Numbered from the stretch's first letter, positions 13,240-16,380 are shown. The stretch: 64,000 nt of DNA from the human T2T-CHM13v2.0 reference genome, Homo sapiens (GCA_009914755.4 CP068257.2:27744001-27808000); one strand, 5' to 3'. The notes: generated by a model not told the origin, from the sequence alone. Program-made: numbers and translations.

Positions 13240-15758
13240 ATTTTAAGTTCCAGGATACGCGTGCAGAACATTCAGGTTTGTTACATAGGTATACATGTGC
13301 TATGGTGGTTTGCTGCACCTATCAACCCGTCATCTAGATACTAAGCCCCTCACGCCTTAGCTATTTATCTTGATGCTCTCCCTCCCCCTCCCCCACTCCC
13401 CAAACAGGCCCCAATGTGTGTTGTTCCCCTCCTTGTGCCCATGTGTTCTCATTGTTCAGCTCCCACTTATAAGTGAGAACATGGAGTGTTTGGTTTTCTG
13501 TTCCTGTGTTAGTTTGCTGAGGATAATGGCTTCTAGCTCTATTCATGTCCCTGCAAAGGACATGATCTCTTTTCTTTTTATGGTTGCATAGTATTCCATG
13601 GTGTATATGTACCACATTTTCTTTATCCAGTCTATCATTGATGGGCATTTTGGTTAATTCTATGTTTTTGCTGTTGTCGATAGTGCTGCAGTGAACATAC
13701 ATATGCATGTATCTTTATGATAGAATGATTTATATTCCTTTGGGTAGATATCTAATAATGGGACTGCTGAGTCACATAGTATTTCTGGTTCTAGGTCTTT
13801 GAGGAATTGTCACACTGCCTTCCACAATGGTTGAACTAATTTACATTCCCACCAACAGTGTAAAAGCATTCCTATTTCTCCACAGCTTCACCAGCACCTG
13901 TTGTTTCTTGACTTTGAGAATTGTTATTCTGACTGGTGTGAGATGCTGTCTCGTTGTGGTTTTGATTTGCATTTCTCTAGTGATGTTGAACTTTTTTCAT
14001 TTGTTTGTTGGCTGCATAAATGTCCTCTTTTGAGAAGTGTCTGTTCGTGTCCTTTGCCCAGTTTTTTTTTTTTTTTAAGTATTTATTGATCATTCTTGGG
14101 TGTTTCTCGGAGAGGGGGATGTGGCAGGGTCATAGGATAATAGTGGAGAGAAGGTCAGTAGATAAACACGTGAACAAAGGTCTCTGGTTTTCCTAGGCAG
14201 AGGTCCCTGCGGGCTTCCGCAGTGTTTGTGTCCCTGGGTACTTGAGATTAGGGAGTGGTGATGACTCTTAAGGAGCATGCTGCCTTCAAGCATCTGTTTA
14301 ACAAAGCACATCTTGCACCGCCCTTAATCCATTTAACCCTGAGTTGACACAGCACATGTTTCAGAGAGCACGGGGTTGGGAGTAAGGTTATAGATTAACA
14401 GCATCCCAAGGCAGAAGAATTTTTCTTAGTACAGAACAAAATGGAGTCTCCTATGTCTATTTCTTTCTACACAGACACAGTAACAATCTGATCTCTCTTT
14501 CTTTTCCCCACATTTCCCCCTTTTCTTTTTGACAAAACCGCCATCGTCTTCATGGCCCGTTCTCGATGGTCGCTGTCTCTTTGGAGCCGTTGGGTACACC
14601 TCCCAGATGGGGCGGCTGGGCAGAGGCGCTCCTCACTTCCCAGACGGGGTGGCCGGGCAGAGGCGCTCCTCACATCCCAGACGATGCTTTGCCCAGTTTT
14701 TAATTTTTTTTTTTTTGTAAATTTGTTTAAGTTCCTTGTAGATTCTGGATATTAGACCTTTGTCAGATGGTTAGATTGTAAGAATCTTCTCCCATTCTGT
14801 AGGTTTTTTGTTTACTCTGACAGTTTTTTTTCTGTGCAGAAGCTCTTTAGTTTAATTAGATGCCATTTATCAATTTTAGCTTTTGTTGCAGTTGCTTTTG
14901 ACGTTTTCCTCATGAAATCTTTGCCTGTGCCTATGTCCTGAATGGTATTGCCTAGATTTTTTTCTAGGGTTTTTATAGTTTGGGGTGTTAAATTTAAGTC
15001 TTTAATCCATCTTCAGTTAATTTTTGTATGAGGTACAAGGAATGGGTCCAGTTTCAATTTTCTGCATATGGCTAGCCAGTTTTCCCAGCACCATTTATTA
15101 AATAGAGAATCCTTTCTCCGTTGCTTGTTTTTGTCAGGTTTTTCGAAGATCAGATGGTTGTAGATGTACAGTCTTACTTCTGAGATCTCTATTCTGTTCC
15201 ATTGGTCTATGTGTCTGTTTTCATACCAGTACCATGCTGTTTAGGTAATTGTAACCTTGTAGTATAGTTTGAAGTCAGCTAGTGTGATGCCTCCAACTTT
15301 GTTCTTTTTGCTTAGAATTATCTTGGTTATACAGGCTCTTTTTTGGTTCCATATGAATTTTAAAGTTTTTTTTTTTTTCTAATTTTGTGAAGCATGGCAG
15401 TGGTAGTTAAATGGGAATAGTACTGAATTTACAAGTTACTTTGGGCAGCGTGACCATTTTTGTGATATTGATTCTTCCTATCCATGAGCATGGAATGTTT
15501 TTCCATTTGTTTGTGTCCTCTCTGATTTCCTTAGCAGTAGTTTGTAGTTCTCCTTAAATAGGTCCTTCACTTCCCTTGTTAGCTGTATTCCTAGATATTT
15601 TATTCTCTTTGTAGCAATTGTGAATGAGAGCTCATTCATGAGTTGGCTCTCTGCTTGTCTATTCTTGGTGTGTAGAAATGCTTGTGATTTTTGCACATTG
15701 ATTTTTTATCCTGAGACTTTGCTGAAGTTGCTTATCAGCCTAAGAAGCTTTTGGGCTG
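13240..15758 (-). mobile_element. L1PA-type 3' fragment (ORF2 3' end plus 3'UTR), moderately diverged, split by the SVA insertion
   Basis: The minus-orientation L1 3' end ttttaagttccaggatacgcgtgcagaacattcaggtttgttacataggtatacatgtgc... continues through the ORF2 C-terminal region. The L1 resumes after 14702 (gtaaatttgtttaagttccttgtagattctggatattagacctttgtcagatgg...) and ends near ttatcagcctaagaagcttttgggctg. ORF 15478..15696(-) translates as an ORF2 fragment (...[23 protein letters not shown]...). Confidence 0.9.
14062..14687 (-). mobile_element. SVA retrotransposon, 5'-truncated (poly-A, SINE-R region and a short VNTR piece), inserted into the L1 with a 15-bp TSD
   Basis: A 15-nt poly-T (the minus-strand poly-A tail) is followed by aagtatttattgatc (AATAAA signal), then SINE-R/HERV-K-derived sequence (ggagagggggatgtggcagggtcataggataatagtggagagaaggtcagtagataaacacgtgaacaaaggtctctgg...cagaggtccctgcgggcttccgcagtgtttgtgtccctgggtacttgagattagggagtggtgatgactcttaaggagcatgctgccttcaagcatctgtttaacaaagcacatcttgcaccgcccttaatccatttaaccctgagttgacacagcacatgtttcagagagcacggggttgggagtaaggttatagattaacagcatcccaaggcagaag), and VNTR-type units cctcacttcccagacggggtggccgggcagaggcgctcctcacatcccagacg. 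The TSD ctttgcccagttttt occurs at about 14052..14062 and 14688..14702. Confidence 0.85.
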
Positions 15759-16380
15759 CCCAAGCCCCCTTTTTTTTCCCTCCTTAGTCATAAAGGAAAA
15801 AACGATCTAGATTTGGCATCTTCCATAGAAAAGAGGAATAGGTATGTTTGCCTTTCTCACATGGACAGTCGAAGGCGAGTCTTTGTGGGTAGTCCCATCT
15901 AAAGTGTCTAGGAAGCTCCTGTGGACATGGTGCTGGCGTACTGAAGTGGGATCTTCTACTCCTGCTTGATTTTCTGACCTTCTGAGAGTGAGATGGTAAA
16001 AACTGAAATCTCCAGCATGGTCTGCCACTAGAACCTTCATTCTTGCCCTGCCTGCCCCACAGTGCTTAAAATATTAGAACAATATTGCTATTGCTCAAGA
16101 AAGAACCACTTCTGCTAGTGCCAGTGACTCGCTGTTTCTTGAAGGAGTTACAAGCTTTGAAAACATGCAGGAAAATGATGAGGTAGAAACATTCTGATCA
16201 CCTCAAAACAGTACCTGTTCAGTAGTGAAGCCACAGCTTTTTTTTTTTTTTGGTTATTAGCTAGGGCAGACTGATATGGACATTCAAGATGCCATTCACT
16301 TTATTTGGACAAAGCTGGGTGGACTACAGATTGATTTTCACAATTCCACTCCACCTAATTCATGATGAGAAATTCTAAAG

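What the first reader, a model, noticed from the sequence alone, without database searches (positions are those of the whole stretch)
13240..15758. Hominid-specific SVA inserted, with a perfect 15-bp TSD, into an older L1PA fragment
A ~625-bp 5'-truncated SVA (poly-A, AATAAA, SINE-R/HERV-K-derived body and two VNTR-type units) sits antisense at 14062..14687. The direct repeat ctttgcccagttttt at 14052..14062 and 14688..14702 flanks it exactly where L1 collinearity breaks and resumes. SVAs arose only in hominoids and are mobilised in trans by L1, so this is a young insertion nested in an older one. The intact TSD and pure 15-nt poly-A suggest it is very recent and possibly polymorphic in human populations.
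Basis: partly seen in the sequence, partly recalled or inferred. Interest (0 to 1): 0.55.

Follow-up and report, generated by a model that had tools for sequence, protein, structure and literature searches.

The report
Old truncated SVA_A inside dead L1
This is an ordinary 5'-truncated SVA retrotransposon copy that L1 machinery pasted into an older dead L1 element; it belongs to the oldest SVA subfamily (SVA_A), so it is probably millions of years old, not recent.

Summary
The structure is real. A 620-625 bp insert lies antisense at 14062/14067-14686. It has a T10-15 tail, AATAAA, a SINE-R body and 2.4 VNTR units.

Removing the insert plus one 15-mer copy restores a collinear match to human L1 ORF2p residues 710-1274 (E 4e-231). 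A second L1 in the window has that site once. The pre-integration site reads TTTTT/AA, the L1 endonuclease consensus.

The body is 96% identical to the env-3'/LTR5 end of a HERV-K provirus, and it carries the SINE-R-specific ~365-bp LTR deletion.

The "very recent, possibly polymorphic" reading is not supported:
- The SINE-R differs by 9 substitutions in ~505 nt (1.8%) from the published SVA_A consensus. It differs by 7.4% plus 18 bp of indels from young-type SVAs.
- Eight of the nine differences are private or nearly private to this copy, which gives roughly 8 Myr (3-18).
- A perfect 15-bp TSD is expected about 55-70% of the time at that age.
- The 10-15 nt tail is far shorter than de novo tails of 30-78 nt.

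This is a routine repeat annotation of low interest.

The parts
13240..14051 (-). 3' part of a 5'-truncated, degenerate L1: ORF2 C-terminus (about residues 1069-1275) plus the 3'UTR. The L1 3' end lies at about 13240.
   Evidence: PDB human ORF2p match. (79-82% identity to other L1 copies in the window).
14052..14066 (.). Target-site duplication, left copy: CTTTGCCCAGTTTTT.
   Evidence: One search shows the site is single-copy in an independent L1.
14067..14076 (-). SVA poly(A) tail, read as T10 on the + strand. It is up to 15 nt if the 5 T shared with the TSD are counted.
14082..14087 (-). Polyadenylation signal AATAAA (TTTATT on the + strand).
14077..14601 (-). SINE-R module. The HERV-K env-3' region is 14513-14601. 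The LTR5 U3-R is 14077-14512. It matches the SVA_A consensus.
14182..14197 (-). Junction of the SINE-R-specific ~365-bp internal LTR5 deletion (CCTAGGAAAACCAG|AG).
14602..14686 (-). VNTR remnant: a partial B-type unit, one 37-nt unit and the terminal unit. The 5' truncation point of the SVA is at 14686.
   Evidence: 2.4 x 37 nt, 90% matches. One search gives the published repeat-unit sequences.
14687..14701 (.). Target-site duplication, right copy: CTTTGCCCAGTTTTT.
14697..14703 (+). L1 endonuclease nick site TTTTT/AA in the pre-integration sequence. The nick falls between 14701 and 14702.
   Evidence: The consensus is taken from PMC3287187.
14702..15758 (-). 5'-ward part of the same L1 (ORF2p residues about 710-1066). 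The L1 is 5'-truncated at about 15758.

Best explanation
A polyadenylated SVA_A transcript was retrotransposed in trans by L1 ORF2p (target-primed reverse transcription) into the ORF2 region of an already dead, antisense-lying L1.

The inferred steps are:
1. ORF2p endonuclease nicked the + strand at 5'-TTTTT/AA-3', between what are now 14701 and 14702.
2. The T-stretch primed on the SVA poly(A).
3. Reverse transcription ran through the SINE-R and stopped about 620 nt in, inside a VNTR unit. This produced the 5' truncation.
4. A staggered second-strand break 15 bp away produced the 15-bp duplication.

The copy belongs to the oldest SVA subfamily. It has since accumulated about 1.7% substitutions. 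It is most likely a fixed, inert relic several million years old, probably shared with other great apes. It is unlikely to be a young or polymorphic insertion.

Shown here: the anatomy, the TSD, the endonuclease motif, the HERV-K/SINE-R homology, the subfamily match and the divergence. Inferred: the order of the TPRT steps, the age in years, and fixation.
For: TSD. The exact 15-mer occurs only at the two insert boundaries.

Host L1.
- An independent L1 copy at 42640-43010 has the site once and is collinear across the join.
- With the insert and one TSD copy removed, the sequence matches human L1 ORF2p 710-1274 in order. One aligned stretch (1024-1096) runs straight across the join; E 4e-231.
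- The junction ORF matches ORF2p 1069-1095.
- The empty site reads CAGTTTTT|AATTTT, the L1 EN consensus TTTT/AA (PMC3287187).

SVA identity.
- The insert has 2.4 VNTR units, AATAAA and a T10-15 tail.
- It is 96.4% identical over 418 nt to the env-3'/LTR of a contig that Pfam shows to be a HERV-K provirus.
- It has the ~365-bp LTR deletion that other SVA copies share.

Subfamily.
- It differs by 9 substitutions in ~505 nt from the published SVA_A (= orangutan SVA_PA_1) SINE-R consensus.
- It differs from sampled group consensi as follows: intermediate SVA types 3.4-5.0%; young-type SVA 7.4% plus 18 bp of indels; HERV-K/LTR5 5.3%.
- The character matrix shows the ancestral state at essentially every subfamily-separating site.

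Age.
- Eight of the 9 differences are private or nearly private among 39-56 sampled copies: 6 non-CpG in 488 sites and 2 CpG transitions in 28.
- With 0.0015/site/Myr and a 6x rate at CpG (PMC1239904), about 1 substitution per Myr is expected. That gives about 8 Myr, with a Poisson range of roughly 3-18.

Literature.
- SVA_A dates to about 13.56 Myr (PMC3606032) and SVA_A is present in orangutan (PMC4432496).
- No polymorphic SVA_A-C insertions were found in 20 long-read genomes (PMC10681720).
- De novo SVA tails are 30-78 nt.
Against: - No orthologous locus from another individual or species could be retrieved, so presence/absence was never observed directly.
- The species of the window is not known.
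- The SVA_A consensus used was machine-read from a PDF. It contains dropped letters and two transpositions, which I discounted by comparison with the sampled copies.
- None of the ~35 sampled SVA copies was itself a clear SVA_A covering the 3' diagnostic sites. The subfamily call therefore rests on the published consensus and on outgroup polarity.
- Some 'private' substitutions may have been inherited from the source copy, which would make the age an overestimate.
Confidence: 0.87

Rival explanations
1. One reading: a very recent SVA insertion, possibly still polymorphic in human populations.
For: The TSD is a perfect 15/15 match and the homopolymer tail is pure.
Against: - The subfamily is SVA_A, not D/E/F.
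- There are 8 substitutions private or nearly private to this copy in 516 nt, including 2 CpG decays. At under 0.5 Myr about 0.5 would be expected, so P(>=8) is roughly 5e-8 if all arose after insertion.
- Two 15-mers stay identical with probability exp(-0.045 T), which is 0.68 at 8.5 Myr and 0.54 at 13.6 Myr. The perfect TSD therefore says little.
- The tail is 10-15 nt against 30-78 nt in de novo insertions.
- No polymorphic SVA_A-C were found in 20 long-read genomes.
Confidence: 0.03
2. It is an old SVA, but from another early lineage (SVA_B/C or an unnamed pre-A or early-A branch) rather than SVA_A proper.
For: At 14272 the copy has C, the state of some HERV-K/LTR5 copies, where the SVA_A consensus has G. 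PMC10681720 notes uncertainty about the A/B order and about which SVA_A consensus is in use. No second SVA_A copy was sampled for comparison.
Against: - Every other diagnostic site agrees with the published SVA_A consensus.
- This includes the 16-bp block at 14568-14583.
- It also includes four sites 3' of the deletion where all sampled later SVAs are derived.
- Distances to the intermediate groups are twice as large.
Confidence: 0.08
3. It is not an SVA but a HERV-K solo LTR5 or proviral fragment, or a processed HERV-K transcript.
For: Identity to HERV-K env-3'/LTR5 contigs is 96-97%.
Against: - 37-nt VNTR units lie upstream.
- The ~365-bp internal LTR deletion is the same as in other SVA copies.
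- The element ends in a poly(A) tail right after AATAAA, not at the LTR end.
- It has a 15-bp TSD at a TTTTT/AA site. By my own knowledge, integrase-mediated HERV-K insertion leaves a short (5-6 bp) duplication.
Confidence: 0.01
4. The 15-mer pair is a chance repeat or an internal L1 repeat, and the insert arrived by some non-TPRT route such as recombination or gene conversion.
For: The repeat is T-rich at its end and lies in a T-rich stretch of the L1.
Against: - The chance expectation is 0.03 per window.
- An independent L1 has the sequence once.
- The ORF2p alignment is contiguous only when exactly one copy is removed.
- The boundaries coincide with the poly(A) end and with the truncation point.
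Confidence: 0.01

Closest known systems
SVA_A (SINE-R-VNTR-Alu, oldest subfamily; Wang et al. 2005; Repbase/Dfam)
   Same: - The SINE-R sequence is 1.8% from the published consensus.
- It keeps the ancestral 16-bp block and shows all diagnostic states but one.
- It has VNTR units, AATAAA plus poly(A), a TSD, an L1 EN target and 5' truncation.
   Different: - It lacks the (CCCTCT)n hexamer, the Alu-like region and most of the VNTR because of 5' truncation.
- It has 8 private or nearly private substitutions.
- It has one site (14272) with the HERV-K-like C.
Young human SVA_D/E/F insertions (the polymorphic, disease-causing class)
   Same: Same architecture and the same L1-dependent insertion mechanism.
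   Different: - Substitution distance is 7.4%, plus 18 bp of indels, to the sampled young-type consensus.
- The young types have lost the 16-bp block and carry many derived SINE-R changes.
- Their de novo tails are 30-78 nt.
HERV-K (HML-2) env-3' / LTR5
   Same: It is the source of the SINE-R module: 96-97% identity over 14184-14601 to proviral contigs (L050, L064, L065, L012).
   Different: - The window element lacks about 365 bp of LTR interior.
- It lacks the LTR 3' end beyond the poly(A) site.
- It is preceded by VNTR units.
- It was inserted by L1 machinery, not by integrase.
Gibbon LAVA / PVA / FVA VNTR composites
   Same: They share a VNTR module and L1-mediated mobilisation.
   Different: Their 3' modules are L1ME5/AluSz, PTGR2 or FRAM, not SINE-R (PMC4432496). 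Here the 3' module is SINE-R.

Membership tests
SVA retrotransposon | SINE-R 3' module derived from the HERV-K env-3'/LTR5, with the internal LTR deletion. | tested here: met
   Identity is 96.4% over 418 nt to a Pfam-verified HERV-K provirus, followed by a 365-nt gap and then 109 nt of R-proximal LTR. Other SVA contigs share the same junction.
SVA retrotransposon | GC-rich VNTR of about 35-50 bp units upstream of the SINE-R. | tested here: met
   One search finds 2.4 copies of a 37-mer at 14597-14683. The units match the published B-type, A-type and terminal units.
SVA retrotransposon | 5' (CCCTCT)n hexamer and Alu-like region. | tested here: not met
   These are absent; the element starts inside a VNTR unit at 14686. 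This is as expected for a 5'-truncated copy: 3180 of 5107 reference SVAs are truncated (PMC10681720).
SVA retrotransposon | AATAAA followed by a poly(A) tail at the 3' end. | tested here: met
   TTTATT at 14082-14087 and a T-run at 14062-14076.
L1-mediated (TPRT) insertion | A 4-20 bp target-site duplication of a single-copy target sequence. | tested here: met
   The range is taken from PMC3287187.
L1-mediated (TPRT) insertion | Insertion at the 5'-TTTT/AA-3' endonuclease consensus. | tested here: met
   the empty site reads CAGTTTTT|AATTTT on the nicked strand.
SVA_A subfamily | SINE-R diagnostic positions agree with the SVA_A consensus. | tested here: met
   9 substitutions in ~505 nt; ancestral states at the subfamily-separating sites; larger distances to all other groups. 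Caveat: the consensus was machine-read from a PDF.
Young / polymorphic SVA insertion | Subfamily D-F, near-zero divergence from the source, a long poly(A) tail, and an empty allele in the population. | tested here: not met
   The subfamily is A, there are 8 private or nearly private substitutions, and the tail is 10-15 nt. The empty-allele test was not possible with these tools.
L1PA (primate L1) host element | Collinear match to L1 ORF2 and 3'UTR. | tested here: met
   ORF2p 710-1274, E 4e-231; 75% aa identity and 10 in-frame stops. One search also shows at least 5 frame changes.
L1PA (primate L1) host element | Assignment to a named L1PA subfamily by 3'UTR/ORF2 diagnostic sites. | not testable with these tools
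   No L1 subfamily consensus library was available. My reading of the 3'UTR as L1PA-like rests on memory only.

The most novel reading that the evidence does not exclude
Despite being SVA_A by sequence, the insertion might be lineage-restricted or still segregating as a presence/absence variant. Alternatively, the copy might descend from a pre-SVA_A source that retained the HERV-K state at 14272, which would make it informative about the very first SVA master copies.
Probability: 0.03. Interest if true: 0.3.

Novelty: already known. Interest (0 to 1): 0.06.

Why it matters
It matters little. A truncated SVA_A nested in an old L1 is a routine annotation that RepeatMasker would make.

The useful outcome is a correction. 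A perfect TSD and a clean short A-tail do not indicate youth. The subfamily and the copy's own substitutions place the insertion millions of years back, so it is not a good candidate for a polymorphic or disease-relevant mobile-element insertion.

As an SVA relic it could still carry KZFP-binding or enhancer-like sequence. Nothing here tests that.

Tried and rejected
- Pfam on six ORFs from the region gave nothing significant because the ORFs are degenerate or out of frame.
- A PDB search with the 115-aa ORF at 13361-13708 gave nothing. That ORF runs mostly in a non-ORF2 frame and in the 3'UTR.
- Exact-protein look-ups of two window ORFs (115 aa and 388 aa), meant to fetch the same locus from other assemblies, found nothing on record. 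Presence/absence in other genomes therefore could not be examined.
- The viral-contig scans found nothing, either for the SINE-R 19-mer or for the locus-specific left flank plus TSD.
- The metagenome scan returned 60 repeat-bearing contigs that I take to be human DNA, but none was this locus.
- Rfam has no family for this region. Its only hit in the window is snoU13, elsewhere.
- A CpG-island scan and a strict Alu 5'-end scan of the window found nothing, so the gene context was not identified.
- I considered naming the L1 subfamily from memory and dropped it as untestable.

Full report
**1. Observation**

- The exact 15-mer CTTTGCCCAGTTTTT occurs only twice in the 64-kb window, at 14052-14066 and 14687-14701. 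The chance expectation is 0.03, and no shuffle gave two matches.
- A run of 15 T lies at 14062-14076. Its first five T are also the last five bases of the left repeat copy. The A-tail is therefore 10-15 nt, and the insert is 14067-14686 or 14062-14686.
- TTTATT (AATAAA on the minus strand) lies at 14082-14087.
- Tandem Repeats Finder reports 2.4 copies of a 37-nt GC-rich unit at 14597-14683.

**2. The flanks are one L1, interrupted at one position**

- A self-comparison finds other L1 copies in the window. One of them (41988-43160) runs straight through the homologous site.
- Aligned to it, the window sequence is collinear only if the insert and one copy of the 15-mer are removed. That L1 has the site once, as CTTCGCCCACTTTTT.
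- The junction ORF at 13977-14093(-) matches human L1 ORF2p residues 1069-1095 (E 5e-7).
- I translated the insert-free reconstruction (13240-14066 + 14702-15758, reverse strand) in three frames. It matches ORF2p residues 710-1274 in order, in six frame-shifted pieces (E 4e-231). One piece (1024-1096) runs across the join with only a 3-residue gap.
- Over 559 aligned residues the identity is 75%, with 10 in-frame stops.
- The host is therefore an old, dead, 5'-truncated L1 of 1,884 bp lying antisense. I could not test the 'L1PA' subfamily label because no L1 consensus library was available.

**3. The insert is an SVA**

I had no repeat library, so I fetched related copies.
- A conserved SINE-R 19-mer found five repeat contigs that I take to be human DNA, hidden in 'bacterial' assemblies.
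- A 26-mer found 60 metagenome contigs.
- One of these, L050, is a complete HERV-K provirus by Pfam, with HERV-K_env_2, RVT_1, rve, Gag_p24 and dUTPase domains.
- The window insert is 96.4% identical over 418 nt to the env-3'/U3 end of L050. It then skips 365 nt of LTR and resumes for 109 nt up to the poly(A) site.
- The same deletion junction (CCTAGGAAAACCAG|AGACC, window 14182-14197) is present in about 30 contigs that carry VNTR arrays upstream, that is, in SVA copies.
- Together with the VNTR units, the AATAAA and the tail, this identifies a 5'-truncated SVA that starts inside a B-type VNTR unit.

**4. Mechanism**

On the + strand the reconstructed empty site reads …GTGTC CTTTGCCCAGTTTTT|AATTTTTTTTTTTTT…. 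The nick is therefore at 5'-TTTTT/AA-3'. This is the L1 endonuclease consensus listed among the hallmarks of L1-mediated SVA mobilisation, together with 4-20 bp TSDs, poly(A) tails and 5' truncation (PMC3287187).

All four hallmarks are present. The best explanation is trans-mobilisation of an SVA RNA by L1 ORF2p through target-primed reverse transcription. The order of the steps is inferred from the established model and is not observed here.

**5. Subfamily and age**

- I built a character matrix of 43 copies over 65 informative sites. It forms a graded series from HERV-K/LTR5 outgroups to the abundant young-type SVAs. The window copy keeps the ancestral state at essentially every site. These include a 16-bp block (14568-14583) that most SVAs have lost, and four sites 3' of the deletion where every other sampled SVA is derived.
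- The supplement of PMC4432496 prints the SINE-R consensus of orangutan SVA_PA_1 and states that it is identical to human SVA_A.
- Aligned to that consensus, the window copy shows 13 mismatches. Four of them are two obvious transpositions in the machine-read text. That leaves 9 substitutions in ~505 nt, or 1.8%.
- Substitution distances to my sampled group consensi:

| Group | Distance |
|---|---|
| Intermediate SVA types | 3.4-5.0% |
| HERV-K/LTR5 | 5.3% |
| Young-type SVA | 7.4% plus 18 bp of indels |

- Eight of the nine differences are private or nearly private among 39-56 sampled copies: six non-CpG changes in 488 sites and two CpG transitions in 28 CpG positions.
- With 0.0015 substitutions/site/Myr and a six-fold higher CpG rate (PMC1239904), about one substitution per Myr is expected in this segment. 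The copy is therefore roughly 8 Myr old, with a Poisson range of about 3-18. Any differences inherited from the source copy would lower this figure.
- SVA_A is dated to about 13.56 Myr (Wang et al. 2005, as cited in PMC3606032), and SVA_A elements exist in orangutan.
- In 20 long-read human genomes no polymorphic insertions of subfamilies A-C were found (PMC10681720).
Two 15-mers stay identical with probability exp(-0.045 T), which is 0.68 at 8.5 Myr and 0.54 at 13.6 Myr. A 10-15 nt tail is much shorter than the 30-78 nt tails of de novo SVA insertions.

**6. Limits**

- I could not retrieve the orthologous locus from any other genome. Exact-protein look-ups found nothing, the metagenome contigs did not include this locus, and the viral scans were empty. 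Fixation and sharing with other apes are therefore predictions, not observations.
- The species of the window is not given.
- The SVA_A consensus came from machine-read text.
- None of my sampled SVA copies was itself a clear SVA_A covering the 3' sites. This is probably because low-coverage contaminant assemblies favour high-copy young repeats.

**7. Verdict**

The structural interpretation (SVA, antisense, truncated, true TSD, nested in an older L1, L1-mediated) is supported. The claim of recency or polymorphism is not supported. This is a known kind of element and a routine annotation, of low interest.

Noticed in passing
window 11261-11364 (-): A full-length match to Rfam snoU13 (RF01210): 94 bits against a gathering score of 46, model positions 1-104. 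I did not examine whether it is a functional U13 copy or one of the dispersed U13-like pseudogenes.
   Followed up: no
window 41988-44435: A second, much better preserved L1 with an inverted 5' part. The minus-strand ORF at 42723-43292 matches ORF2p 952-1096. The plus-strand 388-aa ORF at 43269-44435 matches ORF2p 564-947 at 848 bits. This is the classic 5'-inversion ('twin priming') structure.
   Followed up: partly
L003, L005, L008, L009, L011 (GTDB genome contigs): SVA/LTR5 repeat fragments, which I take to be human DNA, sit as short contigs in assemblies labelled Chromatium weissei DSM 5161, Actinomadura cremea JCM 3308, Psychrobacter cibarius W1, Streptosporangium violaceochromogenes JCM 3281 and Campylobacter concisus. 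This looks like human DNA contamination of species-representative genomes.
   Followed up: partly
L005 71-2084; L013, L033, L035, L037 (1-1244), L067, L068: - These contigs show a hexamer, Alu-like region, VNTR and young-type SINE-R 5' part.
- That part runs into an undeleted LTR5, and where the contig reaches that far (L005, L013, L033, L037, L068) it continues to the LTR end, with no poly(A).
- The contigs are 94-98% alike.
- Where a contig extends past the element (L013), homology stops at both element ends and the flanks differ.
- They are either real SVA-LTR5 hybrid copies at several loci or short-read assembly chimeras formed through the shared repeat. This is unresolved.
   Followed up: partly
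window 15786-15839 (+): Just beyond the L1 5' end there is a polypyrimidine tract plus AG, then 54 nt open in one frame, then GTATGT. This looks like an exon with splice sites. It is judged by eye only. The host gene was not identified.
   Followed up: no
window 14702-14716: Immediately next to the insertion site, the host L1 has AA plus T13 where the other L1 copy has GATGGGGTTATTTGTTTTTTTCTT. That is a deletion of about 9 bp that left a pure T-run. This run may have made the site an especially good L1-endonuclease target.
   Followed up: no
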